Assembly: GCA_024642145.1 (NCBI GenBank)
Contig: JAHEBS010000001.1
Coordinates: 1 to 50,093, forward strand
Direction: 5' to 3'
DNA: 50,093 nt
From: Marivivens sp.
GTDB taxonomy: Bacteria > Pseudomonadota > Alphaproteobacteria > Rhodobacterales > Rhodobacteraceae
A program made the position numbers and the translations under genes. Shown here in pieces: positions 157 to 24,569 of the stretch (positions are counted from its first letter, which is position 1; each line of letters begins with the position of its first letter). The notes beneath the pieces are model-generated. The model was not told the DNA's origin, did no database searches, and saw only the letters and a list, made by a program, of their open reading frames with translations.

Positions 157-3100
157 CTAGACCGAGGTGGGCAGGCGGGCGCGGACTTCGGCGACGATGG
201 CGTCAAAGTCGAGCCCGCGCTTGGAATAGAGCCCCTCGACCCAGCCTTCCAGACGGTGGCGGTCCTCGGCGGTCAGGGTTTTGGCGGTGACCACGATCAC
301 GGGAATGCCTGTCCATTCGGGTCGAGACCGGAAAATCTCGGCGAATTCGAAGCCGTCCATCTCGGGCATCATCAAATCCAGCAGCACCAGCCCCGGCGTT
401 ACCGTTTTCAGCCGTTCAAGCGCCACGCGGCCGTTTTCGGCCTCGACCACCGCCAGACCGTTTTCTGTCAGCGTCCGCGCCAAGAGCGCGCGGGTGTCGT
501 CGTCGTCCTCGACCACCAGAACACTGGCCCCGTCCTTGCCACTCAAGAGCCGCCGGATCGAGCCGACAAGCCGCGCGCGGTCGATGGGTTTGGTCAGATA
601 TTCCGAGGCCCCCAGTGAAAAGCCCAGTTTCTTGTCCTCGATGATGGTCACCATCACCACTGGGATGGATTCGGTTTCGGGCAGGGCCTTCAATTCGGCC
701 AGAACAGACCAACCATCGGTGGCCGGCATGATGACGTCGAGCGTGATCAACTGTGGCTGCTCGTCACGCGCCATGCGGATGCCGGTCTTGCCATCCGCAG
801 CCTCGACGGTGCGATAACCTGCGGCGTTCAGGTTGCGGCGCAGCAATTCGCGCACCACGGCGTCGTCGTCGATGATCAGGACAAGCGGTGCGGTATCCGA
901 GGCGGGCGCAGGCGCGGTTTCGACCACAGGCGCAGGCGCCAAGGCCGAAGCATCGGTCAGCACGGTCATGGTGAACGTCGTGCCTTTGCCAAGCTCGCTC
1001 ACCACCGTCAGATCGCCGCCCATCATGCGACAGAACTCGCGCGTGATGGTCAGCCCAAGCCCCGTCCCCCCGTATTTGCGCGAGGTCGATGCGTCTGCCT
1101 GCGTGAAAGGCTCAAAGACCTTTTTCAACTGCTCGGGCGACATGCCGATACCCTGATCGGACACATCGACCTGCAGCATCCTGCCCTTGTCCGTGGTCGA
1201 GATGGTCACGGTGATCAGACCGTTTTCACAGAACTTGGCGGCGTTGGACAAAAGGTTGAAAAAGTTCTGCTTGAACTTGGTAAGGTCGGTATTGATGGTC
1301 TTGCGCCGCGCGCGATTGTCGATTTCCAGCCGGTTGTGGTTCTTTTCCACCACAGGCTGAATGGTGTTGCAGACGTCCTCCAGCAACTCGGACAAGGCGA
1401 ATTCTTCGACATAAAGCTCTAGCTTGCCCACCTCGATCTTGGACAGATCGAGGATATCGTTGATCAGCCCCAGAAGATGGCGGCCCGCCTTCTGGATCTT
1501 TTCAAGATCCGGCACATAGGCCTCTTCGCCATCGTCGGTGACCTCATCGATCAGCAGTTCGGAATAGCCGATGATCGCGTTCAACGGGGTGCGTAACTCG
1601 TGGCTCATATTAGCCAGAAACTGGGATTTGGCCGAATTGGCCTGAATGGCCGCATCACGGGCAACGGCCAGTTCCTTGACCAGTGCGTCCAGCTCTTCCT
1701 CGTGGTGTTTGCTTTCGGTCATGTCGGTCCAGATCGACACGATCCCGCCTTCACGCGTCTCGAATCCTTCCGAGCGGTACCAACGACCGTCGGCGTTGCG
1801 ATCCAGCGAACTCCGCACTTTCTGGGTGCGTCGGCTGCGCAGGACTTGCTGGCGCCATGCCTCGAGGTCCTCTTCCGAGTCGAAACTACGATAGGGGTTT
1901 TTCGAACGGCGGAAGAAGCTCTCGAATGTCTCGCCGATCTGGAATTCCTTGCCGTCCAGCAGCAGCGCGCGCATATGGCCGCGGGCCTTTTTGTTGATGG
2001 CCACCAACCGGTCTTCGCTGTCGTAGAGGGCAAAGCCCTGATCCATCGCCTCTAGCGCGTCGGTCAGGCGCTGGTGGGCAAGTTCGGTTTCGCGGGCCAG
2101 CCGCGCCAGCACCTCTTCGTGCTTTTTCTCTTCCGAGATGTCGGTAAAGACCGACACCGTGCCACCATCCACCGTGGCAAAGCCTTCGGATCGCATCCAG
2201 CGCCCCGACGGGGTCTGGTCGGTTGAAAGGCGGGTCTTGTTCGCGGCGCGGTTCTTCAACACGCGCTCGACCCATTCGCGTCCCTCTTTCCTTGTCTTGA
2301 TATGGTGCATGTGATGCGACGCTTTTTCGGTCAGATCGGCAAAAAAATCGCCTTCCACCATGCGGTATCCGCCGGTGAAATCTGCCATCAGATCGCTGGC
2401 GCGCTGGTTGAACAGCAGCACCCTGTCGTCCTTGTCGTACAGGATGATGGCCTGCCCCATCGCCTCGATCGCATCCATCAATCGCCGGTGCGCGATTTCC
2501 GCATCCTCCGCCAAAGCGGCGAGTTCGGCCTCGTGTTTCTTGGCCTCGGTGATGTCGGTAAAGACCGAAACCGTGCCCCCGTCAGACGTGGGGAACCCTT
2601 CAGATTGAAACCAGCGCCCCGAAGGCAGCAGGTCTGACGACAGCCTGACTTTCTGTGTGCGTCGTGTATGCAGAACCTTTTGAATCCACGCCTCTTTTTC
2701 TTCGTCGCTTCTGTCGCCCTGCATCAACCTGGCCGACTGCCGAAGCCCCATTTCAAAGGGTTGGCCAATCTGGGGCCGCGCGCCGCCGGTAAAGTCGGTA
2801 TAGATGTCCCGATACGAGCGGTTGAACAGGACAATCCGGTCGTCGGAATCAAAGAGAACGATCGCTTGCCCCACGGCCTCGACCGCGTCCATCAGTCTTT
2901 GGTGCGCGGCGGCCGCCTCTTCGCGGCTACGGGCGACCTCTTTTTCGGCTATGGTTCGTTCGGCCACCGACCCCAGCAGCGTGCCGACATGACCCAAAAC
3001 CTCGATGATATCGACATTTGCATGGGTAGGTTCGCGGGCAAAGAACTCCAGCACACCGACAACGCCCTCGTGCAGGACGACGGGAAAGGCCATGGCCGCG

Positions 3101-4191
3101 CTCAGGCCTGCTTCGCGGCAAAAGGCCTTGCGGCGGAAGGCACGGTCCCTCGAGACGTCTTCGATCCAGACCGGACGGCGCGCCTTGACCGCGCGACCGG
3201 GCAGCCCGTCCTTGGCGTCGAACCGCATGCTCTCGACCGCCTGACGCAGACGCGACATCCCCTGTTCATGTTCGATATGCCAGATACCGGTGGGCGTCAG
3301 ATGAACGGTTCTGCCCTCGGTCTTGGCGACATAGGCATGGCCGACCGACCAGCCGGTGAACATGCAGATCTCGTGCAACGCCGTCTGCAGCGCGGTTTCA
3401 AAACTTGTCGCGCTGTTGGCGGCCAGAACGATATTTTGCAGCAGCCGCACCGACGCGGTCCGTTCCGCCACCCGACGTTCCAATTCGTCATTGGCGTGTT
3501 GCAGGTCTTCCTTGGCGGCAAGTTCGGCGGTGATATCGCGGCCATAGACGTTGATATAACCCGCGTCCTTGATAAAGCCGAAGTTCAAGAGATAGGTCTG
3601 CCCGCTTTCGCAGTGGTATTCGGTGGTGCGGTTCTCGCCCGTGGCCACGACCTCATCAATCAAATCGGCCAAGGCCGAACTCAGGCGCTCTTGGGGACGG
3701 GTTTCCACCAGCCCGATGATTTTGCGCGCCGCGGCATTGGCCAGCAAAATCGCGCGATCGGGGCGGATGCGCACGACGGGGTTGGGGTTTTCCAGAGGAA
3801 AGCGTGCAGCCTCGGCCACGTCCTTTTCCGCGGCACGGACCTGTGTGACGTCGCGCAGATAGGCATTCACATAACCGCGGTCGGCCAGCGGATTGAACAG
3901 CGCGTTATAGATGCGGCCATTGGCGTGGATGTCGATGCGGCGCTGTTGGCCCGATTTGAGCGCCGCAGCCGCCTCGCGGGCGACCTTGGTCGCGGCCTTG
4001 GTCCCCTTGGCGGCCAAAAGCTCGCTCGCCTCTTTGGTGGCGGCGTTGGCATAAAGGATCTTGCCCGCGGCACCCACGCGAAAGATGGGATAGGGGCTTT
4101 CCTCGACGATACCGACTAGCGAGAGGTCTTGCCCCTCGTCCGCGGTCGCTTTGGTCATTTTGGCCATAGGTTGCTCCGACGCCCGCCCCAC
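157..4191 (-). CDS. Large hybrid sensor histidine kinase: two N-terminal PAS-like units, a GAF-like region, three tandem PAS-like units, HisKA, HATPase and two receiver domains
   Basis: A 1344-aa ORF. The H-box is [18 protein letters not shown]. The ATPase N/G boxes are LLSNAAKF and DQGIGM...GGTGLGLTI. The two REC domains are LVLIIDDD...TLDVIMP...YLTKP and VLVVEDDDD...[11 protein letters not shown]...VVTAK. The start could also be the MAKM codons a few residues downstream. Confidence 0.9.
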
Positions 4192-4199
4192 CGAGGGGG

Positions 4200-6167
4200 T
4201 CAGGTCGATTTGAATCCGATCTTGAGGTGCGTGTTATCGCAGAAGGGTTTGTTCGAGGAACCGCCGCAACGGCACAGCCGGACCGAGGTCAGGCGATCCA
4301 CGGTCCGCCCTGTTCCGGTGATGATTTCCAGATTGCCGTCGATCTGCAAGGGTCCATCCTTTTCGGGGCGGATCGCCAGCACATCACCACGGATCTTGAG
4401 CGGTTCCGAGGGGCGGGTATCGGGTTCGCCGCTGGCACTGAACCCGATTTCCTTGTGCGAGCCGTCACACCACGGCTTGTTCTTGGACGCGCCGCAGCGA
4501 CAAAGCGTGGCGCGGAAACCATCGCTCTTGCCGTCGATCTCGATGGTGGCGTTGACCGCATAGGGGCCGTTCTCGCGCAGCCGGATCGTATTGACCTGCG
4601 GCGCAGGTTCGGGCGGCAGATCGCCCTTGGGCGTATAGCTGATGGCCCCCGAGGGGCAGGTGACGCATACCGTGCGCAGGGCACCCGTCTCCATGGTTTC
4701 GGGATGCAGCCACGGTCCGACCACATTGGCCAAAAACACCTCGGGCGCGCCCAACACGCAATGGCGGGCATGGATGCAGCGCTGGGTATCGAAATGCAGC
4801 GTCAGGTCCTTGGCCTCGGCGCTTTCGGGCGCGTTGGCGGCCGCCGGATCGGTGGCCAACTCGCGCTTGCCCGAGGGCAGATCGTCGTGGACGATCTTGG
4901 CTTTCGGTGCGCGGGTTCCGGCGGCGGGGGGCGTGATCTTGTCGCCGATTTCCTCGATCTTGTCGGCAAGCTTGGACAGTTCATGGCCTTGGGGAAAGAA
5001 ATGGCGGCAATGGGCCACGATCTCATGGGTCCGCTCGGCCAGAACCAAGGGTTCGCTGTCGCCCAAGGGCAGGCGCTGAATATCACGGGCAAGGGTAAAG
5101 CTCATTCCCGCGGTGACACCGGGATATTCGGGGCCAGCGGGCAGGCTTGCCAGATACTCGCCCACCGGCATCAAAAGCCGCATCAGGTGGCGAGCCTGAT
5201 CGACATAGAGCTTTTTGGCGGCCTTGTTGGCGCTATCGCGCCCCCATGACTGCGCCAGAAAGCGCAACATCAGGTTATAAAGCGCATTGCCCAGATCCAT
5301 GGCGCGCAGCGCCTCGGGGTTTGTGACCAAAACGCAGCCTTCGTCCATATCCGTCAGACGGGGCCGCGGATTGCGGGCGACCGGATGGGCCGGTGCGAAG
5401 GTGGGGTCCGCCGCCATCATGGCGGCGAGTTCGTCTTTTACCGCCAGAAAGGCGTTATAGTGGCTGTCCTCGGAATGGGCCGGTGCGCCCTCGCCCTGTT
5501 CGACGATTGTCTCGATCGCATCATGGGCCGATGCCAGATCGGTCACGACCTTCAGCCCCGGCAAGGCGGCATCGCCCGGCCCGATCTGTTCATCGACGGT
5601 GCCACAGAACAGCGACTGGGCGCCGTAACGACGGTTAAGCACCTCGAACCCGTGGTAAATCCCGCGATAGAGATGCCCGATGGTTTGATAATCCTGCGCC
5701 GAGGGCATGATGGCGCCTTTGGGCATGGCGCGGTGATAGTCGTCAGGGCGGATGAACTCTGGCGCGTCGCTCATCTCCATGCCCTCGGGGCGTTCCAGAT
5801 AGATGGCGTGATCGACCAATGCGGGCGAAAAACCCACCAATTCCAGATCGATACCCGCCGGATGATAACCGGCGCGGATCGGGAATTCGGGCCGCGACAG
5901 ATGCGGCGTGCCACCGATGGCCGTCACCAGATTGCCGACAATGGTCAGATGCGTCATCTCTTCGATGGCGACATTCAACATGGCGTTTTTCCAACGCTTG
6001 ACGGTCGCCGCCTGCGCGGGTGTCAGCCCGTCGCGCTCGCCGCGCTTGAGGCTCCATATCCCGTAAAGATAGCAGCACATCACGTTGTGTTCGATCGCTG
6101 CCGCTTCGGCCAGCATATAGATCAGCTCTTCGCGATCACCGATCCTGAGGCGTGCTTCTTCGGTCAT
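4200..6167 (-). CDS. Ferritin-like domain protein fused to a divergent 4Fe-4S mono-cluster region and two CDGSH iron-sulfur domains
   Basis: The start is set at the ATG at 6167 ([13 protein letters not shown]...), preceded by AGGGAG. The N-terminal part has ferritin-like helices ([25 protein letters not shown]). The Cys-rich middle reads [13 protein letters not shown]...[12 protein letters not shown]. The C-terminus has [17 protein letters not shown] and [17 protein letters not shown]. The stop at 4200 lies 8 nt before the kinase start at 4191. Confidence 0.8.
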
Positions 6168-6236
6168 ATCCGCCGCTCCCTTTGGGCCGACTCTGCCCCA
6201 AACCGCCCCTGCGGAGCAAGGAATTAGCGTGGTTGC

Positions 6237-6246
6237 GCCACGTGGC
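6237..6246. promoter_or_regulatory. Perfect 10-bp palindrome GCCACGTGGC in the divergent intergenic region; candidate operator
   Basis: Read directly from the sequence. An upstream CGTGG (6228-6232) can also pair with CCACG (6238-6242). It lies between the divergent starts at 6167 (-) and 6276/6303 (+). Confidence 0.25.
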
Positions 6247-6275
6247 TTTTCGTTGAGTTTCCCCCACCCTTCCCT

Positions 6276-8033
6276 ATGCTGACCCGAAACGAGGACCGGG
6301 GAATGCCCTTGATGACAACTGCCCCAGAGCCCCAGACTCCCCCTCTGGCCGAGGTTGCCTTTGCCGTGGGCGTGACAGGTCATCGCAACCCGCGTGCCGA
6401 GGATATCACGACCCTGCGCGCGCAGGTCGGGGCCGAGCTTGCAGCCCTGCGTCGGCATCTGGATGGCACGCCCGTGGTGCTGATGACCGGTCTGGCCGCT
6501 GGTGCCGATATGCTGGCCGCCGAGGCCGCAATCGATGCGGGCATTGGCGTCGACGCGGTGCTGCCCATGCCGCGCACCGCCTATGAGTCCGATTTTTCAG
6601 CGGCCGAGCTGGCCGCGTTTTGCGAGATCGTCCGCAATCCGCTGGTGCGGGTGCGGGAAATTCCGCTGGCGCCGAGTGTGACGCCCGAGGCGCTGGCCCG
6701 CGATCAGGCCCTGCGCGACGCGCAATACGCGCGGCTTGGCGATTATTTACGCCGTCGTTCGAACCTGATGATCGCGCTTTGGGACGGGGCCCGCACCGAA
6801 CTGACCGGCGGAACGGGCGAGGTCGTCTTGGGTTATCTGGCTGACGCCACCGAGGGGCATATTGCCGAAATGGCCAGCGCCGCCGCGCCGGACGATTGCG
6901 GCAACGTGGTGGCGTGGATTGCGACCCCGCGCGCAGGATCGGGACAAAAGACCGGACCTACGCGGTATCTGGTTTCGACCGCGAACCATGACTGTTACGC
7001 GACCTTTGACAGCCCCCCCGCCGCCGTCATCCGCCGCTGGGAGGCGATGGCCGCGTTTCACGACGATCTGGCCTCGTCACAGGGCCGGAACCTGACGGCC
7101 TATCCCTTGGGTGACGCACCCTCGCCCGATCTGGCGGCCATTGACCTGCTGTATCAGCGCGCCGACCAATTGGCCCGCGCGGCACAGGACATGTCGAACC
7201 GGCTTTTCCGCTATTTCGCGCTGATCGCAGGGGCCATGGGGCTTGCGTTTCTGGCCTATGCCAAGCTCTGGGCCGAACCCGCCTTTCTGGTGGTCTATGT
7301 CTTGCTGTTCTTTGCGGGCTATGCGGGTTTCCGGTTTTCGGCGCGGATGCATCTGCATGGCCGCCATCTGGCCTGCCGCGTTCTGGCCGAAACCCTGCGG
7401 GTGCAGTATTTCCTGACCCTATCGGGCGCAGGCGCCGCCTATTCGCTGCGCCGCCTTCTGGATCTGACCAGTGTCGCGCGGTTCGAGCGTTTCGAATGGT
7501 TGCCCGAGGCGTTGCGCGCCGCCGAACCGCTGGTCTATGACCCGCCAACGGGCGACGAAGACGCCATTGCACGGGTGCGCGGCGACTGGATCGTTGACCA
7601 GCGCGACTATTTTTCGCGCAAGCTTCATAAGCTGCATCACGAACATGAACGGCTGGCGCGGTTCAAAACCGCCCTGCTCGGTGGGTCGGTTCTGGGGGCG
7701 CTTGCGCTGATTTTCATGATGGACGAATTGCATCACATGGAAATGGCGGGCCATGACGGCAAGGTCTGGCTGGTGTTCCTGATGGGGCTCTTGCCGCTTT
7801 GGGCCGCGATCTGGGAACTTTATCACGGCAAGATGGCCACCCGCGAACTGCTTTGGCAATACGCCAATCAGCGCCGGTTCTTTGCCACGGCTGAAACCGA
7901 AATCGCCATGGCAAAAGGCCCCGAGGCCGAACGCAAGGTGATCCGTGATCTGGCTGACAAGGCGCTGATCGAAATTTACCTTTGGTCTGTCCACCGGTTC
8001 CACCGTGAACACGAACCCCCTTCGGCAGGATAG
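6276..8033 (+). CDS. Membrane protein with an N-terminal SLOG-like (LOG/DprA/YpsA-type Rossmannoid) domain fused to two SLATT-like helix-plus-2-TM modules
   Basis: A 585-aa ORF. The N-domain motifs are VGVTGHR, TGLAAGADMLAAEAA, ALWDG and TGGTGEVV (the last resembles the LOG-type GGxGT motif). There are four predicted TM helices at about aa 312-329, 335-353, 465-482 and 497-515. Each pair is preceded by a charged helix (YQRADQLARAAQ... and DQRDYFSRKLHKLHHEHERL). The alternative start ATG at 6303 has a better GAGGA spacing. Confidence 0.6.
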   Translation: MLTRNEDRGMPLMTTAPEPQTPPLAEVAFAVGVTGHRNPRAEDITTLRAQVGAELAALRRHLDGTPVVLMTGLAAGADMLAAEAAIDAGIGVDAVLPMPRTAYESDFSAAELAAFCEIVRNPLVRVREIPLAPSVTPEALARDQALRDAQYARLGDYLRRRSNLMIALWDGARTELTGGTGEVVLGYLADATEGHIAEMASAAAPDDCGNVVAWIATPRAGSGQKTGPTRYLVSTANHDCYATFDSPPAAVIRRWEAMAAFHDDLASSQGRNLTAYPLGDAPSPDLAAIDLLYQRADQLARAAQDMSNRLFRYFALIAGAMGLAFLAYAKLWAEPAFLVVYVLLFFAGYAGFRFSARMHLHGRHLACRVLAETLRVQYFLTLSGAGAAYSLRRLLDLTSVARFERFEWLPEALRAAEPLVYDPPTGDEDAIARVRGDWIVDQRDYFSRKLHKLHHEHERLARFKTALLGGSVLGALALIFMMDELHHMEMAGHDGKVWLVFLMGLLPLWAAIWELYHGKMATRELLWQYANQRRFFATAETEIAMAKGPEAERKVIRDLADKALIEIYLWSVHRFHREHEPPSAG

Positions 8034-8035
8034 CC

Positions 8036-9487
8036 ATGGCAGAGACGGGCGAGGACAACGCTGGCTTCGAGATTAGACTGGGCAACCTGCGCCATGATCT
8101 GCGGACGCCCATCGGCCATATCACCGGCTATGCCGAACTGATCGAGGAGGACCTTGATGAGGCGGGGCGGGTCGCCTACGGGCCGGACCTGTCGGCCATT
8201 CTCGGGGCCGGACAGCGGATGCTGGGCATCATCGACCAGCATCTGACCGGCCCGCGCCACACCATCGAAGACATCGACCTGCAGGAGGCGCAATTCGCGC
8301 TGCGCCTGCACCTCAACCATATCGCAGGCTATACCGAGATTCTGCGTGAAGAGGCGGTCGACCGTGGCGATGATGCACTGGTTGCCGATCTCGACCACAT
8401 CAACAGGGGCAAACAGGACCTGCTGGCCCTGATCGAAGACATGGCGACCCGTCTGAGCGAGGATGGCGCGACCCCCGCCGACAAAGCCAAGACCGAGGAG
8501 CCCGAGGATGTTTTGTCCACCATCGTCGGCGTGGGTGGCGAGATTCTTGTGGTCGATGACGATGCGGCCAACCGCGAATTGCTGACGCGCCGTTTGGCAC
8601 GTGGCGGCTATAGCTCGACGGCGGTGTCCTCGGGCCAAGAAGCGCTGGACGCACTGGCCCAGCACCGCTTTGACCTCGTGTTACTCGACATGAAGATGGA
8701 GGGGCTTTCCGGCCTCGAAACGCTGCACCAGATCAAGGCCAATGCCCGCCTGCGTGCGGTGCCCGTCATCATGCTGTCGGCCGGAGATGATACGGCCCAA
8801 ATGGTGCAGACAATCCTTGCCGGAGCCGAGGATTACGTCGTCAAACCCTTTAACCCCGTCCTCTTGATCGCGCGCATCAACGCCTGCCTTGAAAAGATCC
8901 GCCTGCGCCAGAACGCGGCCCGCCAGATCAAGGTCTTTATCTCGTCCCCCGGCGATGTGATCCCCGAACGCCAGATCGCCAAAATGGTGCTTGGCCGCCT
9001 GAACGAGGAATACTCGGGACGCCTGTTGTTGGTGCCGATCTTGTGGGAGGAAGAGCCTCTCTTGGCCTCCGATACGTTTCAGGCGCAGATACACCCGCCA
9101 CATGAAACCGACATCTACCTCGGGATCTTGTGGTCCCGCATCGGCTCGCCCCTGCCCGCCTCCATCCGCCGTGCGGACGGGTCGCAGTATGAAAGCGGGT
9201 CGGTTTTCGAATTCGAGGACGCGCTTGAGGGGTTTCGCGCCTGTGGACGGCCCCAGATGCTGCTCTACCGCAAGGACGGAGCGCCGCAGGTTTCCTTGGC
9301 CGACAGGAACGACGTTCTGGACAGGCTGGACCAGATGGACAAGCTGCAGTCCTATCTGCAGACCAACCTCACAGGTGACGATGGTTCATATGTGGCGGCC
9401 TTTCACACGTTTCGTGGCGCGGCCGAGTTTGAAAGCATGATCGAAACCCATCTGCGCAAGCTGGTGCAGAAGTTCCTGACCGCCTGA
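8036..9487 (+). CDS. Response-regulator-type protein: two DHp/HisKA-like H-box segments without an ATPase domain, a receiver domain, and a C-terminal TIR-like (DUF4062-type) domain
   Basis: A 483-aa ORF starting 2 nt after the upstream stop. The H-box-like segments are LRHDLRTPIGHITGYAELI and LRLHLNHIAGYTEILRE. The REC domain reads ILVVDDD...LVLLDMKMEGLSG...YVVKPF. The C-terminal domain (aa about 298-415) reads IKVFISSPGDVIPERQ...LWEEEP...DIYLGILWSRIGSP...SVFEFEDAL...PQMLLYRK. This matches the DUF4062 pattern as I remember it (vFiSS..D...ER / E / D.y..i...R.GS / TE.E...A). Confidence 0.65.
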   Translation: MAETGEDNAGFEIRLGNLRHDLRTPIGHITGYAELIEEDLDEAGRVAYGPDLSAILGAGQRMLGIIDQHLTGPRHTIEDIDLQEAQFALRLHLNHIAGYTEILREEAVDRGDDALVADLDHINRGKQDLLALIEDMATRLSEDGATPADKAKTEEPEDVLSTIVGVGGEILVVDDDAANRELLTRRLARGGYSSTAVSSGQEALDALAQHRFDLVLLDMKMEGLSGLETLHQIKANARLRAVPVIMLSAGDDTAQMVQTILAGAEDYVVKPFNPVLLIARINACLEKIRLRQNAARQIKVFISSPGDVIPERQIAKMVLGRLNEEYSGRLLLVPILWEEEPLLASDTFQAQIHPPHETDIYLGILWSRIGSPLPASIRRADGSQYESGSVFEFEDALEGFRACGRPQMLLYRKDGAPQVSLADRNDVLDRLDQMDKLQSYLQTNLTGDDGSYVAAFHTFRGAAEFESMIETHLRKLVQKFLTA

Positions 9488-9553
9488 ACCTGCCCGCGAT
9501 TGCGCCAAAGCCAAGCCGCGACTAGACTTGAGGAAATTGACGGGAAATCTGCA

Positions 9554-9919
9554 ATGCCACTTATTCTGCTGGTCGAAGATAACGAGATGAACCGTGATAT
9601 GCTGTCGCGGCGGCTTCTCAAACGCGGGTTCGAGTTGCAGATCGCCGTCAACGGGCAGGAGGGCGTCGATATGGCGCTGTCTGGCAGCCCCGATCTGATC
9701 TTGCTGGATATGTCGCTGCCGATCATCGACGGTTGGGAGGCCGCACGGCAGATCAAGGCAGATCCCAAGGGCAAGGCCATTCCGATCATCGCGCTGACCG
9801 CGCATGCCATGGCGGGCGACCGTGAAAAGGCGATGGCCGCAGGTTGCGACGATTATGACACCAAGCCCGTGGACCTTGCGCGGCTTTTGGAGAAAATCAG
9901 CGCCCTGATCGGCGGCTGA
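9554..9919 (+). CDS. Single-domain CheY-like response regulator (receiver only)
   Basis: The start is set at the ATG at 9554 (MPLILLVEDNEMNRD...); the track ORF begins at a non-ATG codon at 9500. The acidic pocket is VEDN, the phospho-acceptor context is LILLDMSLP, and ALTAH and DDYDTKP are conserved. Confidence 0.85.
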   Translation: MPLILLVEDNEMNRDMLSRRLLKRGFELQIAVNGQEGVDMALSGSPDLILLDMSLPIIDGWEAARQIKADPKGKAIPIIALTAHAMAGDREKAMAAGCDDYDTKPVDLARLLEKISALIGG

Positions 9920-9929
9920 ACGGGCTGGC

Positions 9930-10958
9930 ATGGCCGAGGACGCAACACCCCAAGACGCAACCAAACTCCGCGCCGCGCTCTTGGCGGGCGGGGCCGAGGC
10001 TACGGCGGCGCGCAAGGCGCTGCTGGGCGGCAATGGCACCCTGCGGCAGGCCGATTTCGCGGAATGCGATCTGGCGGCGCGCGATCTGTCTGATCTGGAC
10101 CTGCAGGGCGCCGATTTCTTTGGCGCTGACCTGTCAGCGGCCAACCTCAAGATGGCCAAGTTGACCGGAGCCGAACTGGCCCATACTCGCCTGCACGCCA
10201 CCGCGCTCTACAAGGCGGAACTCACGGGCGCCATTTTGCTCGAGGCCGATCTGGAAGGGGCGGACCTGTCGGAATGCCATGCGCGGGGCGCTGATTTCCG
10301 CGGCGCGCGACTCGCCAATGCCAAGCTTTGCGGCGCCGATCTGCGCGATGCCGATTTTTCTTTGGCCGATCTCAGCGGCGCCGACCTCAGCGGCGCCGAT
10401 ATCGGTGGCGCGCGCATGACGGCCGCCCAGATCGACGGCGCCAATGTCAGCCGCCTGCGCTATGGCGGGTATCGCAAGATGAGCGGGCTTTATAACGGGA
10501 TCCGTGGCGTCGATCAGACCTTTGGCAATGCGCTTTTCGTGCGCGACGCCAAGGATCAGGATTATATCGACACGCTCGGGCAGGCGATCCAGGACATGGC
10601 GCCCGGACCGATCAGAATGCTGGAACAGGCCATGTTCCGGCTATGGGGCCTGATCGACCATGGGCGCAGTCTGTTGAAGGTCTGGCTATATGCCCTTGGT
10701 ATTGCGACACTTTATGGGCTTTTGTATTTGGCGGACATGTCGAACGACTGGGGGATCATGGATTATTCCACCTCGGCCAATACATGGTTCACGCCGTTCT
10801 ACTATTCGGTCGTGACCTATACGACACTGGGCTATGGCGATGTGACTGCCGATAGTCTGTTGGGCGAGATGTTGGTGGTGAGCGAAGTGGTGATCGGCTA
10901 TTTCACCTTGGGGCTTTTACTGGCGATCTTGGCCAATACCATCGCCCGTCGCAGCTAG
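9930..10958 (+). CDS. Pentapeptide-repeat domain fused to a 2-TM potassium-channel pore domain
   Basis: A 342-aa ORF. It has about 25 consecutive A(D/N)LxX-type pentapeptides (ADFFGADLSAANLKMAKLTGAEL...ADLSGADLSGADIGGARM). The C-terminus has TM1 (VWLYALGIATLYGLLYL), a pore helix plus selectivity filter (FYYSVVTYTTLGYGDV) and TM2 (VVSEVVIGYFTLGLLLAIL). Confidence 0.85.
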   Translation: MAEDATPQDATKLRAALLAGGAEATAARKALLGGNGTLRQADFAECDLAARDLSDLDLQGADFFGADLSAANLKMAKLTGAELAHTRLHATALYKAELTGAILLEADLEGADLSECHARGADFRGARLANAKLCGADLRDADFSLADLSGADLSGADIGGARMTAAQIDGANVSRLRYGGYRKMSGLYNGIRGVDQTFGNALFVRDAKDQDYIDTLGQAIQDMAPGPIRMLEQAMFRLWGLIDHGRSLLKVWLYALGIATLYGLLYLADMSNDWGIMDYSTSANTWFTPFYYSVVTYTTLGYGDVTADSLLGEMLVVSEVVIGYFTLGLLLAILANTIARRS

Positions 10959-16349: not shown

Positions 16350-18686
16350 TTACTGGCCGGTCTGTTGCCGCATCTGGCGATCAACCGTTTCGGTCAACTC
16401 GGTCAGCGAGAACGGCTTTTGCAAGAAAACCGACTGCGGGATCAGCGACTGGTTTTCGCCAAAGGCGTCTTCGGCATAGCCCGAGACAAACACCACCTGC
16501 ATCGCCGGATGGTGTTTGAGCGCGATCCGCACCCAGCTCGGGCCATCCAGCCCCGGCATGATCACGTCACTGACAATGACATCGACGTGCAACTCGGGGT
16601 CGCGCAGGGCCTCGAGCGCCGCCTCGCCGCAATCGGCCTCGACGACTGAATAGCCCCGCAGCGCCAAGGCGCGGGAGGCGAATGAACGCACAGGCGCCTC
16701 GTCCTCGACCAAAAGCACCACCCCGCCCCGCGGGCCAGCGATCATCGGTTTGGGCAGTCCCTTGTCTGGCAGGGACAGCGCCTCGGGCGAAACCGCTGTT
16801 TCACGGTCCAGTGCCGGCAACAGAATGCTGAACCGCGCACCGGCACCGATCTGGCTGTCGACAAAGATGAAACCGCCGGTCTGTTTGACGATGCCATAGG
16901 CGGTGGACAGGCCCAGCCCCGTGCCCTCACCGACGCGTTTGGTCGTGTAGAAGGGTTCAAAAATCTTGGCCATTTTCTCGGGCGCGATGCCGTGGCCCTC
17001 ATCCGCGACGGTAACCCGCACATAGCGACCGGCAGGCACCGTGGCGCGGTCACGTTCCATGGGTTCCGCCAGATCAAGGTTTTCGGTGCCGATGGTAATC
17101 TGCCCACCCTCGGCCATGGCATCGCGGGCATTGACCACAAGGTTCATGATGACCTGTTCAATCTGCCGCCGATCCGCGCGCACGGGCGCAAGTTCGGGAT
17201 CATGCACCAGATCAAGCGTGATCCGCTCGCCCACCAAACGGTTCAAGAGATGCGTCAGATCCGCCAGCGTATCGCGCAGATCAACCACCTGAAGCTGCTG
17301 GTTCTGCTTGCGTGAAAAAGCCAGCAATTGGCCGACCAAGGCCGCGGCGCGGTTGGCATTGTGATGGATCTGCACAAGATCGGCAAAGTCACCATCGCTT
17401 TGATCGTGGCGCAGCAACAGCAGGTCGCAATGGCCCGAAATAGCGGTCAGCAGGTTGTTGAAATCATGTGCGATTCCACCCGCCAACTGGCCAATCGCCT
17501 GCATTTTCTGGCTTTGGACAAACTGTGCCTCCAGCGCCTTAAACTCGGTGACGTCGTTCAGGACCCCGATCAGGACCTGCCCGTCATCCTCTTGCGCGCG
17601 GTTCAGCGTCAATTGCACGAACAGGTCCTGACGCACGCCCGCGCCTCGCAGAAATTGCGGCCCGCCCTGCCCGCGCCCCGCGCATGTGTCGCGCAGCCAA
17701 TCGATCATTGGCCGTCCCAAGCCTTCCAGCAGATCCGATAGCCTCAGCCCGTCAACGGCGCCAATCTGCAAGAGCGTCCGCGCCTCGCGGTTGGCCTCGG
17801 CCAGCGTGCCATCGGGGCGGATCTTGAGCAAAGGCACAGGCAGCACCTCGATCTCGGTCCAGTGCGGCGGCGCCTCGGCGGCGTCGGTTGGCAAAAGATA
17901 TATCTCGCGCCGCGCACCGGCGCCGCCAAGCTCGGCCACAAGCCACCGCGTGACCTCGCGCTCGCCCTGCACATCCAGGATCTGGCCCGACCGCACGGTC
18001 TGATCGCCGAAGATCTGACCCAGTCCCTTGACCCGCCCCCCGACCAACTGGCGGAAAGCCGGATTCATATAGAGGACCGTGCCCGTGGCCCCCGCCGTCA
18101 GCATCGGCAGGTTCAAGGCATCGCTTGGCCGCGTTTCCTGCAACTCGGCAACCTCGTCGATCCGCCAGAGAAACCGCCCTTCGCCAGCGGGTTGGGCCGC
18201 GACGACCATATGGCCGCGACGGGTCGTGACCTCTTCTTGGGCCGCGCCTTCGCCCAGCGCCTTTTGTTGCAGCCGGTAAAGCAGCGCGGTCGGGTTGGTG
18301 ATCTGGTCGGCAAGCAAAAGCGGCAGATCGGCGGCTCCGGCCTGCGCCGCGCTATTGGCAAAAAGGATCAGCCCGTTCTCGTCAGCCAGATAGGCAGGCC
18401 CGCTTAGCCCTTGGGCCAAGAGGCGGGCGGCCTCGTTGCGGATGCCATCGGCAAAGCGCCCCCGCCAACGCGCCACGGCGCCAGCGCCCGCCACCAGCCC
18501 CAAGGCAAGTGCCGCCAAGACCAGCGCGATCGAGGCAAAAAGCGGTGCCACCAATAGCCCTGCCGCGGCGGCCAGAAGGGCCGCAGCCAGCATCACATCC
18601 GCGCGTGGCAAGCGCGCGAGTGTCGGCCCGATTGGCAGCATCCCGATTGGTGACTGGTCGGACACCCTGATCCTCTCGCCTTTCAT
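16350..18686 (-). CDS. Membrane-bound PAS-containing hybrid histidine kinase with a C-terminal receiver; CckA-like
   Basis: A 778-aa ORF with an N-terminal hydrophobic pair. The H-box region is [32 protein letters not shown]. The ATPase motifs are [16 protein letters not shown] and GTGLGLST. The REC domain reads [11 protein letters not shown]...[11 protein letters not shown]...FLQKPF. The DHp sequence resembles CckA as I remember it, but this is not proven. Confidence 0.88.
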
Positions 18687-19934: not shown

Positions 19935-22246
<2,312 letters not shown>

Positions 22247-22329
22247 CCGGCACATCAAATGACGCAAGACGGCTGCCCGCCCGCCCGACACAAGCTATTC
22301 TGAACAAGCGCAAACCAAAGGCCTGCCCC

Positions 22330-24369: not shown

Positions 24370-24379
24370 CAGTTGCCGC

Positions 24380-24408
24380 TTGACGGGGCCTTGGTCGCCC
24401 CATATCTC
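24380..24408 (+). promoter_or_regulatory. Sigma70-type promoter candidate for tRNA-Gly
   Basis: TTGACG (24380-24385), a 17-nt spacer and TATCTC (24403-24408). The tRNA 5' end lies 10 nt downstream of the -10 element. Confidence 0.45.
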
Positions 24409-24417
24409 AGGCCTTAG

Positions 24418-24491
24418 GCGGGTGTAGCTCAATGGTAGAGCGAGAGCTTCCCAAGCTCCAGACGAGGGTTCGATTCCCTTCACCCGCTCCA
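24418..24491 (+). tRNA. tRNA-Gly (anticodon CCC)
   Basis: The structure reads GCGGGTG-TA-GCTC-AATGGT-AGAGC-G-AGAGC-TTCCCAA-GCTCC-AGAC-GAGGG-TTCGATT-CCCTT-CACCCGC-T-CCA. It is 74 nt and close to the E. coli tRNA-Gly(CCC) layout. Confidence 0.9.
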
Positions 24492-24569
24492 CTTTCTCGC
24501 TCACGGTTGCTCTGGCGCCTGCCTGCCTTGCGGGCTAAGCCTTTGGCGTCAAGCGAGAGGAGACATTCC

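What the first reader, a model, noticed from the sequence alone, without database searches (positions are those of the whole stretch)
6276..8033. SLOG-like domain fused to a tandem pair of SLATT-like 2-TM modules in one polypeptide
**Seen in the sequence**
- The N-terminal roughly 190 aa carry a Rossmannoid glycine-rich pattern like LOG/DprA/YpsA (GHR after strand 1, GADxxAAxxA, WDG, GGTGE).
- A roughly 100-aa linker follows.
- Two units then have the same layout: a charged amphipathic helix followed by a tight TM hairpin (aa about 288-353 and 436-515).

**Inference**
A duplicated SLATT-like module attached directly to the putative ligand sensor suggests a ligand-gated pore or membrane disruptor. 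The SLOG-plus-TM logic is analogous to TRPM channels.

The true start codon is uncertain among 6276, 6303 and 6312.
Basis: partly seen in the sequence, partly recalled or inferred. Interest (0 to 1): 0.7.

Follow-up and report, generated by a model that had tools for sequence, protein, structure and literature searches.

The report
NAD-signal-gated membrane pore protein
This gene encodes a membrane protein with a nucleotide-sensing SLOG head and two pore-type SLATT modules, and its conserved operon partner is a phosphorylation-controlled NAD-cleaving enzyme, so it probably belongs to an undescribed NAD-derived signalling pathway acting on the cell membrane.

Summary
The gene (best start 6303, end 8033, + strand) encodes a 576-aa protein with three parts:
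- a YpsA-like SLOG domain;
- a SLATT_3/DUF4231-like 2-TM module;
- a SLATT_1-like 2-TM module.

The AlphaFold model is confident (pLDDT 90). Foldseek puts YpsA, ShosA and DprA on top. Family-wide profile scans assign both TM units to the SLATT clan, but to different subfamilies. This is therefore a fusion of two diverged SLATT domains, not a recent duplication. The architecture is widespread: more than 2000 clusters at 50% identity.

[quoted passage not shown] DUF4062 ("NIR") is a TIR-like NADase.
- In 20 other loci the neighbour within 8 kb is a bona fide TIR protein.
- A very divergent member is followed by a DUF4062–STAND gene.
- A single REC, a hybrid histidine kinase and a K+ channel are often alongside.
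- The family was not found on plasmids or phages, and the window's neighbours are housekeeping genes.

Best reading: phosphorelay → NADase → ADPR-type ligand → SLOG → SLATT membrane permeabilisation. This is Thoeris-like logic under two-component control. The domain identities and the gene linkage are shown; the ligand and the pore activity are inferred.

The parts
6303..8033 (+). CDS of the SLOG–SLATT–SLATT protein (576 aa; the ATG at 6276 would give 585 aa)
   Evidence: ORF list. GAGG lies 8 nt upstream of ATG 6303. The database call is 576 aa, with homologues at E down to 1e-204. AlphaFold pLDDT 90.4, pTM 0.90.
6351..6857 (+). Cytoplasmic YpsA-like SLOG domain (aa ~17-185): GHR, GxD (G67-A-D69), WDG and GGT motifs
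   Evidence: Foldseek hits YpsA, ShosA, DprA, MoCo-carrier and LOG-like proteins. DprA and YAcAr models hit 32/44 and 28/44 members. Motif residues are at least 88% conserved in 83 divergent sequences. GxD/E is the YpsA-clade signature (PMC6459960).
6858..7124 (+). Connector: three β-strands plus a helix (aa ~186-274), with conserved W205 and R210
   Evidence: AlphaFold secondary structure E199-207, E221-226, E231-235, H240-257. Conservation.
7125..7427 (+). SLATT unit 1 (SLATT_3/DUF4231-like): amphipathic helix, TM1 (~aa 301-323), TM2 (~327-348), then a helix with invariant R359, E363 and R366
   Evidence: Hydropathy. AlphaFold helices H275-323, H326-349, H351-374. DUF4231 20/37 and SLATT_3 18/37 on isolated unit-1 segments. 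P0088 bridges to DUF4231 above its gathering score.
7554..8012 (+). SLATT unit 2 (SLATT_1-like): helix with invariant W429 and Q433, TM3 (~455-474), short outer loop, TM4 (~486-507), two C-terminal helices, and an HRFHREHEPP tail
   Evidence: Hydropathy. AlphaFold H418-471, H486-511, H513-536, H540-570. Pfam SLATT_1 21/42 and NCBIfam SLATT_1 23/42 on isolated unit-2 segments.
8036..9487 (+). Partner gene: HisKA (no ATPase domain; H20) + REC (D218) + C-terminal DUF4062/NIR TIR-like NADase domain (aa ~297-483; invariant E392, E394). It starts 2 nt after the stop codon of the SLOG-SLATT gene.
   Evidence: Pfam HisKA 4.9e-10 and Response_reg 3.5e-28. DUF4062 hits 28/30 homologues of the C-domain. 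AlphaFold pLDDT 86, with TIR and flavodoxin-like Foldseek hits. Invariant residues. Adjacency in 38 loci.
9500..9919 (+). Single-domain response regulator (REC)
   Evidence: Pfam Response_reg 3.1e-24. Follows the partner gene in most NIR-type loci.
9930..10958 (+). Pentapeptide-repeat domain fused to a 2-TM K+ channel pore (TTLGYGD filter)
   Evidence: Pfam Pentapeptide 2.4e-30 and Ion_trans_2 2.1e-10. A gene with a K+ selectivity-filter motif is present in 24/38 NIR-type loci.
157..4191 (-). Hybrid histidine kinase (PAS/GAF, HisKA, HATPase, two REC), the probable phosphodonor of the relay
   Evidence: ORF and translation. The orthologue carries PAS, GAF, HisKA, HATPase_c and Response_reg. Conserved beside the module in many loci.
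4200..6167 (-). Ferritin-like + Fer4_19 + 2×CDGSH protein, divergent from the target. Membership in the system is uncertain.
   Evidence: Pfam. Present next to the target in about a dozen Rhodobacterales loci. The start is inferred from the 652-657-aa orthologues.

Best explanation
The gene encodes an inner-membrane effector. All of its soluble parts face the cytoplasm:
- a YpsA-like SLOG nucleotide-sensor domain;
- a SLATT_3/DUF4231-like 2-TM module;
- a SLATT_1-like 2-TM module.

It is the first gene of an operon. The second gene encodes a HisKA–REC–DUF4062 protein, meaning a phosphorylation-controlled TIR-like NADase.

Proposed mechanism, step by step:
1. The neighbouring hybrid histidine kinase feeds a phosphorelay to the partner's HisKA His20 and REC Asp218. 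(Domains and conserved residues are shown; the phosphate flow is inferred.)
2. Phosphorylation drives dimerisation or oligomerisation of the DUF4062 domain and switches on NAD+ cleavage. (Inferred from how REC and TIR/DUF4062 domains work.)
3. The product, ADP-ribose or a cyclic or otherwise modified derivative, binds the SLOG pocket formed by GHR, GxD, WDG and GGT. (Inferred. YpsA-clade SLOG domains are the cADPR-isomer sensors of type I Thoeris.)
4. Ligand binding reorganises or oligomerises the two SLATT hairpins, making the membrane permeable and collapsing or modulating ion gradients. (Inferred from the proposed role of SLATT in CBASS and type VII Thoeris.)
5. The co-encoded K+ channel and single REC probably belong to the same membrane-potential or ion response. 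(Weak inference.)

The chromosomal, vertically conserved, two-component-wired context suggests regulated physiology rather than classical mobile phage defence, but this is not settled.
For: **Domain identities**
- The AlphaFold model is confident.
- Foldseek shows a SLOG fold with YpsA as best hit.
- Family-wide hits to SLOG models.
- SLATT_3/DUF4231 for unit 1.
- SLATT_1 for unit 2.

**Sensor rather than enzyme**
- The pocket motifs are conserved, but the LOG-type acidic residue is variable.

**Partner**
- DUF4062 hits 28/30 homologues of the C-domain.
- The F-ISSPGD and S-G-T..E-F-E-D-A motifs correspond to the aromatic and acidic-SYT/catalytic-Glu motifs described for DUF4062 (bioRxiv 10.64898/2026.06.25.731849).
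- H20, D174/D175/D218/K270 and E392/E394 are invariant in 35 sequences.
- DUF4062 hydrolyses NAD+ to ADPR and nicotinamide (bioRxiv 10.64898/2026.05.01.722283 and 10.64898/2026.09.04.749371).

**Gene linkage**
- 38 of 89 loci carry the HisKA–REC–NIR gene. In 33 of them it starts between -64 and +9 nt from the end of the SLOG–SLATT gene.
- 20 other loci carry a Pfam-confirmed TIR_2 protein within 8 kb, 15 of them within about 1.3 kb.
- A 23-29%-identical member (L091) is followed 60 nt downstream by a NIR–nSTAND-type gene. The NADase link therefore holds across three different regulatory modules.

**Precedents**
- TIR + SLATT is type VII Thoeris, signalling with cADPR. TIR + SIR2–SLOG is type I (bioRxiv 10.64898/2025.12.03.692087).
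- The YpsA-like SLOG clade includes cADPR sensors (PMC9503650).

**Non-mobile context**
- No tblastn hit in plasmid or phage collections.
- The window's neighbours are housekeeping genes.
Against: - Nothing here measures ligand binding, NADase activity or membrane permeabilisation.
- For the window protein itself, all SLOG and SLATT profile hits are below curated thresholds.
- 31 of 89 loci show neither a NIR nor a TIR neighbour within the fetched flanks. Many of these are short contigs, and my TIR queries were limited.
- Two NIR-domain genes of this subfamily (L008, L009) and a NIR–nSTAND gene (L092) have no SLOG–SLATT gene nearby.
- Characterised DUF4062 enzymes act as NAD-depleting effectors, not as signal generators.
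- Foldseek for the partner domain is only generically flavodoxin/TIR-like.
- The SLATT pore model itself is still largely a prediction in the literature.
Confidence: 0.55

Rival explanations
1. It is an abortive-infection anti-phage system, i.e. a Thoeris-like variant. The TIR-like enzyme is triggered directly or indirectly by phage infection, and the SLOG–SLATT protein kills the cell by breaching the membrane. The two-component parts only tune expression or activity.
For: - TIR + SLATT (type VII), TIR + ion channel (type X) and TIR + SLOG effectors are validated or proposed Thoeris configurations (bioRxiv 10.64898/2025.12.03.692087).
- DUF4062/NIR genes are enriched near defence genes, and several defend against phage.
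- Relatives sit next to TIR–TPR and NIR–STAND genes, which are architectures typical of immune sensors.
- The partner's C-domain gives a weak PADLOC hit to PDC-S60 (5.7e-7).
Against: - No hit on plasmids or phages.
- The window's neighbours are Ndk, ABC-F, RsmB, IMPDH and PGI.
- The locus is syntenic across many Rhodobacterales genera, with a dedicated PAS/GAF hybrid kinase, REC and K+ channel. This looks like environmental signal transduction.
- No known defence system was detected by PADLOC at meaningful scores.
- In Steroidobacteraceae the TIR gene is paired with a Tll0287-like/HAMP membrane sensor.
Confidence: 0.3
2. The SLOG domain is itself an enzyme, either a LOG-like N-glycosidase or an ADPR-derivative hydrolase. 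In that case it generates or degrades a nucleotide signal at the membrane, and the four TM helices act mainly as an anchor or scaffold rather than as a pore.
For: [quoted passage not shown]
- The pocket motifs are strongly conserved, including invariant or near-invariant H27, D69 and W160.
Against: - The acidic position of the LOG PGGxGTxxE-type motif is variable: Q 28, D 25, H 9 and E 6 of 83.
- The closest fold is YpsA, not LOG.
- Both TM units carry SLATT-specific conserved cytoplasmic helices (R359/E363/R366; W429/Q433), which are far more conserved than a simple anchor would need.
Confidence: 0.1
3. The adjacency is regulatory or coincidental. On this view the NADase partner acts alone by depleting NAD+ or changing metabolism under phosphorelay control. 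The SLOG–SLATT protein responds to a different ligand, such as a cyclic nucleotide or a cytokinin-like base, or to DNA.
For: - Characterised DUF4062 enzymes work by NAD+ depletion.
- Some NIR genes of this subfamily occur without a SLOG–SLATT neighbour, including cNMP-binding–NIR and REC–NIR.
- MscS–cNMP and cNMP-binding genes lie next to some family members.
Against: - Stop and start codons overlap or nearly abut in about 33 loci.
- The NADase-type neighbour recurs with three unrelated regulatory modules (REC, STAND, TPR/HAMP) and two NADase families (DUF4062, TIR).
- That pattern is what is expected of a generator–sensor pair.
Confidence: 0.1

Closest known systems
SLATT-domain 2-TM effectors (CBASS 2TM effectors; ThsH of type VII Thoeris; SLATT partners of DRT10/UG17)
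   Same: - A 2-TM hairpin flanked by conserved cytoplasmic helices.
- Profile hits to SLATT_1, SLATT_3 and DUF4231.
- Genetic coupling to a nucleotide-signal-generating enzyme (TIR-like).
- A predicted membrane-breaching output.
   Different: - Two SLATT domains of different subfamilies sit in one chain.
- A dedicated SLOG sensor is fused in front of them. ThsH is modelled as binding cADPR between SLATT protomers.
- The generator is a REC-controlled DUF4062 rather than a phage-sensing TIR or CD-NTase.
- The context is chromosomal housekeeping.
ThsA of type I Thoeris (SIR2–SLOG)
   Same: A SLOG sensor is coupled to a TIR-family NADase that makes an ADPR-derived ligand. The logic is generator → SLOG → effector.
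   Different: - The effector is a tandem SLATT membrane module, not a SIR2 NADase.
- The SLOG domain is closest to YpsA, ShosA and DprA by fold.
- There is no evidence of phage triggering.
YpsA (B. subtilis, PDB 2nx2) and the YpsA clade of SLOG domains
   Same: - Best structural match (E 6e-4, TM-score on target 0.64).
- The same strand-1 G-x-R-type loop, GxD/E signature and GGT loop.
- The clade is linked to NAD/ADPR ligands.
   Different: - YpsA is a soluble single-domain cell-division regulator.
- Sequence identity is only about 14%.
- The Pfam YpsA model does not hit the window protein.
DUF4062/NIR TIR-like NADases (Swarozyc, Avs-NIR, Evangelion, TEP1), for the partner gene
   Same: - Pfam DUF4062 hits in 28/30 homologues.
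- A conserved N-terminal aromatic/ISSPGD strand and an S-x-T…E acidic motif.
- A flavodoxin/TIR-like predicted fold.
- Also found fused to a STAND NTPase.
   Different: - Here it is fused to HisKA and REC domains (elsewhere to cNMP-binding), which none of the three DUF4062 preprints mentions in its main text.
- It is paired with a SLOG–SLATT protein, which suggests its product is used as a signal rather than only for NAD+ depletion.
TRPM2-type channels (SLOG-like MHR1/2 domain binding ADPR, plus a TM channel)
   Same: By functional analogy, a cytoplasmic SLOG-fold nucleotide sensor is fused to a membrane-permeating module, and ADPR is a plausible ligand.
   Different: - There is no homology in the membrane part.
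- No LSDAT profile hits were found.
- Foldseek matches to TRPM4/8/2 are weak (probability 0.08-0.54) and rest on the SLOG part and long helices.

Membership tests
SLOG superfamily (YpsA-like clade) | Rossmannoid three-layer α/β fold shared with LOG, DprA and YpsA | tested here: met
   AlphaFold pLDDT is about 95 over aa 20-180. Foldseek gives YpsA 2nx2 at E 6e-4 (probability 1.00, TM-score on target 0.64), followed by ShosA, DprA, MoCo-carrier, TM1055 and LOG.
SLOG superfamily (YpsA-like clade) | Conserved nucleotide-pocket loops: the polar loop after strand 1, the GxD/E signature and the GGT Gly-rich loop | tested here: met
   G26-H27-R28, G67-A-D69, W160-D-G162 and G169-G170-T171 are invariant in 44 sequences or conserved in at least 88% of 83. 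GxD/E is named as the YpsA-clade signature in PMC6459960.
SLOG superfamily (YpsA-like clade) | Profile-HMM match above the curated threshold | tested here: inconclusive
   For the window protein, YAcAr scores 15.1 bits against a cut-off of 28.2, and DprA 12.2 against 29.6. Relative P0079 reaches YAcAr 28.8 bits. DprA and YAcAr hit 32/44 and 28/44 members at E<0.1.
SLOG superfamily (YpsA-like clade) | Binds a nucleotide or ADPR-derived ligand | not testable with these tools
   Needs binding assays or a co-structure.
SLATT clan (SLATT_1-6, DUF4231) | Two closely spaced TM helices flanked by cytoplasmic α-helices | tested here: met
   Two such units are seen in hydropathy and in AlphaFold helices H275-323/H326-349/H351-374 and H418-471/H486-511/H513-570.
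SLATT clan (SLATT_1-6, DUF4231) | Profile-HMM similarity to SLATT families, unit 1 | tested here: met
   On isolated unit-1 segments, DUF4231 hits 20/37 and SLATT_3 hits 18/37 (best 5.7e-6). P0088 passes the DUF4231 gathering score (28.1 > 24.7), and that segment aligns to family unit 1. The window sequence alone gives no hit.
SLATT clan (SLATT_1-6, DUF4231) | Profile-HMM similarity to SLATT families, unit 2 | tested here: met
   On isolated unit-2 segments, Pfam SLATT_1 hits 21/42 (best 7.6e-7), NCBIfam SLATT_1 hits 23/42 (best 1.4e-8) and SLATT_4 hits 5/42. The window sequence alone gives no hit.
SLATT clan (SLATT_1-6, DUF4231) | Genomic association with nucleotide-signal generators (SMODS, TIR and similar) | tested here: met
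   Neighbours are DUF4062/NIR in 38 loci and TIR_2 in 20 loci of 89, plus L091. No SMODS neighbour was seen.
SLATT clan (SLATT_1-6, DUF4231) | Forms a membrane pore or lesion on activation | not testable with these tools
   Needs electrophysiology, liposome flux or toxicity assays.
Thoeris defence systems | A TIR-domain protein (ThsB) that produces an ADPR-derived signal | tested here: inconclusive
   The window has a DUF4062 TIR-like domain, not a Pfam TIR. Distant relatives do have TIR_2 or ThsB_TIR neighbours. Signal production was not tested.
Thoeris defence systems | An effector carrying a ligand-sensing domain, encoded next to the TIR gene | tested here: met
   The SLOG–SLATT–SLATT gene abuts the NADase gene.
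Thoeris defence systems | Anti-phage function, or location in a defence island or mobile element | tested here: not met
   No plasmid or phage hits. Neighbours are housekeeping genes. No significant PADLOC system hit. The phage-defence phenotype itself is not testable here.
LOG (cytokinin riboside 5'-monophosphate phosphoribohydrolase) enzymes | Conserved catalytic acidic residue in the PGGxGTxxE motif | tested here: not met
   The position two residues after GGT is Q 28, D 25, H 9 and E 6 of 83. There is no Pfam Lysine_decarbox/LOG hit.
DprA/Smf | Full-length DprA model match and DNA-processing context (SAM-like N-domain, winged-helix C-domain) | tested here: not met
   TIGR00732 scores 12.5 bits against a cut-off of 191. 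Only the Rossmann core aligns, and the C-terminus is membrane-embedded.
LSDAT / TRPM-type SLOG-associated TM modules | Profile match to LSDAT_prok or LSDAT_euk | tested here: not met
   No LSDAT family appears among the hits listed for any Pfam scan. Foldseek TRPM hits have probability ≤0.54 and rmsd about 30 Å.
DUF4062 / NIR TIR-like NADase (partner gene 8036-9487) | Pfam DUF4062 match, with the N-terminal aromatic motif and the S-x-T…E catalytic-Glu motif | tested here: met
   DUF4062 hits 28/30 homologues (best 7.7e-7). The window copy is sub-threshold at 16.2 bits against 24.7. F301, S387-G388 and E392/E394 are invariant. The motifs are as described in bioRxiv 10.64898/2026.06.25.731849.
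DUF4062 / NIR TIR-like NADase (partner gene 8036-9487) | NAD+ hydrolase activity | not testable with these tools
   Needs an ε-NAD or LC-MS assay.

The most novel reading that the evidence does not exclude
The operon would be a non-immune, two-component-controlled NAD-derived second-messenger pathway in bacteria. An environmental signal sensed by the PAS/GAF hybrid kinase switches on a REC-gated TIR-like NADase. Its ADPR-type product gates a SLOG–SLATT–SLATT conductance, which works together with a K+ channel. This would be a prokaryotic functional counterpart of ADPR-gated TRPM2 signalling, used for membrane-potential or ion homeostasis rather than for cell suicide.
Probability: 0.3. Interest if true: 0.85.

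Novelty: new variant of a known kind. Interest (0 to 1): 0.6.

Why it matters
TIR-family NADases and SLOG or SLATT partners are so far known almost only from immunity, in bacteria (Thoeris, CBASS), plants and animals. In those systems they are triggered by pathogens and usually end in cell death.

Here the same generator → SLOG sensor → SLATT membrane-effector logic appears in a different setting:
- It is hard-wired to a classical phosphorelay (hybrid kinase, HisKA–REC, REC) and a K+ channel.
- It sits in a stable chromosomal locus of marine Rhodobacterales and some Gammaproteobacteria.

If the model holds, three things follow:
- NAD-derived messengers would also serve ordinary bacterial signal transduction.
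- REC would be a new way to switch a TIR-like enzyme.
- The system would be genetically tractable for testing two open questions: what SLATT domains actually do in the membrane, and what YpsA-type SLOG domains bind.

It would also give DUF4062 enzymes a signalling role beyond NAD+ depletion.

Tried and rejected
**Approaches that gave nothing useful**
- Single-sequence searches of the window protein against Pfam, NCBIfam, PADLOC and PDB sequences gave only sub-threshold or no hits. A family profile against PDB sequences also gave nothing useful. The domain calls had to rest on family-wide scans and on structure.
- The search for related loci with the full 44-sequence alignment failed because it had no conserved stretch. 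A closer subset worked.
- Burroughs et al. 2015 (PMC4678834), the paper that defined SLOG and SLATT, is not held. I could not check whether the SLOG+SLATT+SLATT architecture was already drawn there.

**Ideas rejected or left weak**
- hhalign of unit 1 against unit 2 was not significant, so 'recent internal duplication' was rejected.
- Foldseek of the partner's C-domain was not decisive. TIR chains are mixed with generic flavodoxin-fold proteins, so DUF4062 membership rests on sequence.
- Unbiased clustering of neighbours in the loci without a NIR partner mostly recovered Steroidobacteraceae synteny (MttB, ABC transporter, desaturase). That reflects relatedness, not function.
- NIR genes fused to cNMP-binding or alone with REC (L008, L009), and a NIR–nSTAND gene (L092), showed no SLOG–SLATT neighbour. 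The link is therefore not obligatory from the NADase side.
- The promoter scan found nothing, and the terminator-like sites were not above chance.
- LOG enzyme, DprA and LSDAT/TRPM membership were considered and rejected (see the membership table).


Full report

The + strand ORF 6276..8033 is present. Three in-frame ATGs lie near its 5' end. ATG 6303 has a GAGG 8 nt upstream (6291-6294), while ATG 6276 has no ribosome-binding site. The public gene call for this exact sequence is 576 aa, which corresponds to a start at 6303.

The gene is not a chance ORF in GC-rich DNA:
- 93 homologues were recovered by the word-indexed search, most of them 560-620 aa.
- 174 species-representative genomes encode a relative.
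- A profile of only the C-terminal 172 residues finds 4011 representative clusters at E≤1e-3 and 2068 at E≤1e-10 among 1.84 billion representatives. Most of the top 150 are 510-680 aa with this segment at the C-terminus; the rest are mainly shorter fragments.

G26-H27-R28, A65-x-G67-A68-D69, W160-D161-G162 and G169-G170 are invariant or nearly invariant in 44 sequences. In 83 sequences that are only 23-49% identical to the window protein, H27, G67, D69, W160, G162 and T171 are at least 90% conserved, and G169 and G170 are 88-89% conserved.

Hydropathy shows four hydrophobic segments arranged as two tight hairpins.

**2. What the protein is**

An AlphaFold2 model built on the 44-sequence alignment is confident (mean pLDDT 90.4, pTM 0.90). 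It shows:
- an α/β domain at aa ~20-180;
- a small three-stranded and helical connector at aa ~199-257;
- two helical units. In each, one long helix runs from the cytoplasm into the membrane (H275-323; H418-471), turns, comes back (H326-349; H486-511), and is followed by further cytoplasmic helices.

*N-terminal domain.* Foldseek against the PDB puts B. subtilis YpsA first (2nx2; E 6.3e-4, probability 1.00, TM-score on target 0.64). ShosA, several DprA structures, the MoCo carrier protein, TM1055 and LOG proteins follow. These are exactly the SLOG superfamily.

At sequence level the window protein alone gives only sub-threshold hits (YAcAr E 0.02, DprA E 0.1, PADLOC ShosA E 0.011). Across the family, DprA and YAcAr models hit 32 and 28 of 44 members, and one member reaches the YAcAr gathering score. 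G67-x-D69 corresponds to the GxD/E signature that defines the YpsA clade, whose mutation inactivates YpsA (PMC6459960).

The residue equivalent to the catalytic acid of the LOG PGGxGTxxE motif is variable (Q 28, D 25, H 9, E 6 of 83). A LOG-type hydrolase is therefore unlikely, and a ligand sensor is the better reading.

*The two TM units.* I tested them separately on isolated segments from divergent members.
- Unit 1 hits DUF4231 in 20/37 and SLATT_3 in 18/37.
- A relative, P0088, passes the DUF4231 gathering score with the very segment that aligns to unit 1 of the family HMM.
- Unit 2 hits Pfam SLATT_1 in 21/42 (best 7.6e-7), NCBIfam SLATT_1 in 23/42 (best 1.4e-8) and SLATT_4 in 5/42.

The two units are not significantly similar to each other by profile-profile comparison. 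The protein is therefore SLOG + SLATT_3/DUF4231-like + SLATT_1-like, a fusion of two long-diverged SLATT domains rather than a recent duplication.

The most conserved residues outside the SLOG pocket lie on the cytoplasmic helices that flank the hairpins: D288 and A291; R359, A362, E363 and R366; W429 and Q433; E557, W561 and R568. This is much more conservation than a passive membrane anchor would need. No solved structure resembles the membrane part.

**3. Surroundings**

The gene heads a tight same-strand cluster:
- 8036-9487, which starts 2 nt after the stop codon;
- 9500-9919;
- 9930-10958.

*The second gene.* It encodes a HisKA domain with the H-box His but no ATPase domain, then a receiver domain, then a ~190-aa C-terminal domain. 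Searching that C-domain alone shows the same domain fused to REC, to cNMP-binding domains and to nSTAND1/AAA_16 STAND NTPases. Pfam DUF4062 hits 28 of 30 of these homologues.

Conserved motifs in this domain are F-I-S-S-P-G-D-V…E-R, W-E-x-E-P-L and S-G-(T/S)-x-(F/W)-E-(F)-E-D-A. They correspond to the N-terminal aromatic motif and the 'acidic-SYT' putative catalytic-Glu motif described for DUF4062 (bioRxiv 10.64898/2026.06.25.731849). The AlphaFold model (pLDDT 86) is a flavodoxin/TIR-like α/β domain. TIR-STING, the RPS4 TIR domain and a nucleoside 2'-deoxyribosyltransferase are among its matches, mixed with generic flavodoxin folds.

Three 2026 preprints show that DUF4062 ('NIR') is a TIR-like NADase that makes ADPR and nicotinamide.

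In 35 distinct orthologues of the partner, the following are invariant:
- the HisKA His (H20);
- the receiver acidic pocket, phospho-Asp and Lys (D174, D175, D218, K270);
- the NIR motif residues (F301…V308, E311, R312, W337, E338, E340, S387, G388, E392, E394, D395, A396).

*The remaining genes.* The third gene is a single-domain REC. The fourth is a pentapeptide-repeat domain fused to a K+ channel pore with a TTLGYGD filter. Upstream on the other strand lie a ferritin-like/Fer4_19/CDGSH protein and a 1344-aa PAS/GAF hybrid histidine kinase with two receivers.

**4. Is the linkage conserved?**

I analysed 89 loci carrying a family member: the window, loci from exact-protein look-ups, and 80 genome loci. 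I used HMMs built here.

- *NIR-type loci.* 38 loci contain the HisKA–REC–NIR gene. In 33 of them it starts between -64 and +9 nt from the end of the SLOG–SLATT gene, commonly with a 4-nt overlap. In Colwellia and Thalassotalea it lies just upstream. The single REC, the hybrid kinase and a K+ channel gene usually accompany it. A gene with a K+ selectivity filter is present in 24/38 of these loci, and a different ~315-aa channel abuts the SLOG–SLATT gene in several others.
- *TIR-type loci.* 20 further loci, mostly Steroidobacteraceae and other Gammaproteobacteria, have a TIR protein within 8 kb, and 15 of these within about 1.3 kb. The sampled examples were confirmed as Pfam TIR_2/ThsB_TIR: short TIR proteins, TIR–TPR proteins, and a TIR gene in an operon with a Tll0287-like/HAMP membrane sensor.
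- *A very divergent member.* P0421 (884 aa) is followed 60 nt downstream by a gene whose N-terminus matches my NIR HMM at 1.5e-84 and continues into an nSTAND-type motif.
- *Loci with neither.* 31 loci showed neither neighbour. Many are short contigs, and my TIR queries were narrow. Unbiased clustering there mainly returned lineage synteny.
- *From the NADase side.* The link is not obligatory. cNMP–NIR (L008), REC–NIR (L009) and NIR–nSTAND (L092) genes lack a SLOG–SLATT neighbour.

Overall, a TIR-family NADase gene from two different families, under three different kinds of regulatory module, is the recurrent partner of this membrane protein. That is the signature of a generator–sensor pair.

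**5. Mechanism**

*Shown:*
- the domain identities;
- conservation of the ligand pocket, phospho-acceptor residues and putative catalytic residues;
- the membrane topology, by prediction;
- the operon linkage.

*Inferred:*
- The hybrid kinase phosphorylates the relay.
- REC phosphorylation activates the NIR domain, most simply through dimerisation or oligomerisation. TIR and DUF4062 enzymes need assembly to be active, and phosphorylated receivers typically dimerise (established knowledge).
- The NAD+-derived product binds the SLOG pocket.
- The tandem SLATT modules then permeabilise the membrane.

*Precedents:* 3'cADPR binds the SLOG domain of ThsA. Canonical cADPR activates the SLATT effector ThsH in type VII Thoeris. 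A TIR + ion-channel configuration is type X (bioRxiv 10.64898/2025.12.03.692087). The YpsA-like SLOG clade is the one implicated in cADPR sensing (PMC9503650).

I put about 0.9 on the architecture, about 0.75 on functional coupling to the NADase, about 0.55 on an NAD-derived ligand, and about 0.5 on a pore or conductance output. For the combined model I give 0.55.

**6. Defence or physiology?**

For defence:
- the parts list (TIR-like, SLOG, SLATT, STAND, TPR) is typical of immune systems;
- DUF4062 genes are enriched near defence genes.

Against defence:
- tblastn finds no family member in 72,556 plasmids or 50,697 phage genomes;
- the window's neighbours are TfoX_C, Ndk, ABC-F, RsmB, IMPDH and PGI;
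- the locus is syntenic across many Rhodobacterales genera together with its own PAS/GAF kinase, REC and K+ channel;
- no PADLOC system is detected.

I lean toward regulated physiological signalling, possibly stress-induced growth arrest. I keep abortive-infection defence as a serious rival at 0.3.

**7. Comparison with what is known, and novelty**

The protein belongs to the computationally defined SLOG/SLATT world (Burroughs et al. 2015, as cited). Its relatives already carry SLATT names in UniRef, so the protein as such is a member of a known but experimentally uncharacterised kind. I could not read the 2015 paper, so I cannot say whether the SLOG+SLATT+SLATT architecture was explicitly described there.

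The system-level arrangement appears to be undescribed in the searchable literature. That arrangement is a REC-controlled DUF4062 NADase translationally coupled to a SLOG–SLATT–SLATT protein within a phosphorelay and K+ channel cluster. None of the three DUF4062 preprints mentions SLOG, SLATT or receiver domains in its main text, and the large Thoeris survey does not mention two-component elements.

I therefore rate it a new variant of a known kind: Thoeris-like generator → SLOG → membrane-effector signalling, re-wired to two-component control. It is not a LOG enzyme, not DprA, and not an LSDAT/TRPM-type module (see the membership table). The TRPM2 resemblance is functional analogy only.

**8. 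Verdict**

One correction applies: the two SLATT units are different subfamilies, not a duplication.
- The conserved NADase partner is an important addition that makes the ligand-gating hypothesis concrete and testable.
- Interest is 0.6.

Noticed in passing
window 9930-10958 (+); also L004 9747-10682, L045 6988-7935, L069, L051, L064: A pentapeptide-repeat domain fused to a 2-TM K+ channel pore (TTLGYGD) closes the operon. A gene with a K+ selectivity-filter motif is present in 24/38 NIR-type loci. A different Ion_trans-type channel (~315 aa, TVGYGD) lies directly beside the SLOG–SLATT gene in several other loci. This recalls the TIR + ion-channel 'type X Thoeris'.
   Followed up: partly
window 4200-6458 (-), real start probably ~6167: A ferritin-like + divergent 4Fe-4S (Fer4_19) + two CDGSH iron-sulfur domains protein, with weak VioB-like similarity, lies divergent from the target. 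It is conserved there in about a dozen Rhodobacterales loci. It may be a redox input, or it may be unrelated.
   Followed up: partly
window 8036-8540 (+), partner aa 1-165: The partner has a HisKA domain with an invariant H-box His (H20) but no ATPase domain. It also has a second conserved H-box-like stretch (N94-H95-x-x-G98-Y99-x-E101). This resembles a ChpT/Spo0B-style phosphotransferase fused to its own receiver.
   Followed up: partly
P0230-P0239 (e.g. L008 7001-7999); P0265-P0271 (e.g. L092 3117-3940); L091 8715-9737: The same DUF4062/NIR subfamily (about 45-65% identical) is fused elsewhere to a cyclic-nucleotide-binding domain or to an nSTAND1 STAND NTPase. One NADase module is therefore plugged into at least three input types: phosphorylation, cNMP and STAND.
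   Followed up: partly
L009 1-1972 and L010 1-553: An isochorismatase-family gene, possibly a nicotinamidase-like enzyme, lies next to the kinase–REC–NIR cluster. In L009 it is fused to TCAD9 and phosphatase domains. It could recycle the nicotinamide released by the NADase.
   Followed up: no
L070 6254-7904 (-), and similar Steroidobacteraceae loci: A short TIR_2 protein (~226 aa) sits in an operon with a Tll0287-like + HAMP membrane sensor, divergent from the SLOG–SLATT gene. This is another case of a TIR enzyme paired with a classical signal-transduction sensor.
   Followed up: partly
P0088 (816 aa): This relative has two tandem SLOG domains (aa 9-166 and 212-377) ahead of the SLATT/DUF4231 region. 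It shows further architectural variation in the family.
   Followed up: no
window 16350-18686 (-): A second hybrid histidine kinase (HisKA, HATPase_c, REC; 778 aa) lies 5.4 kb downstream of the operon. Its relation to the module is unknown.
   Followed up: no
window 22213-24504 (both strands); tRNA at 24418-24491: Two overlapping long ORFs lie here: 749 aa on the - strand, with no Pfam hit, and 718 aa on the + strand. A tRNA-Gly(CCC) gene overlaps the end of the region. Which ORF is real was not resolved.
   Followed up: no
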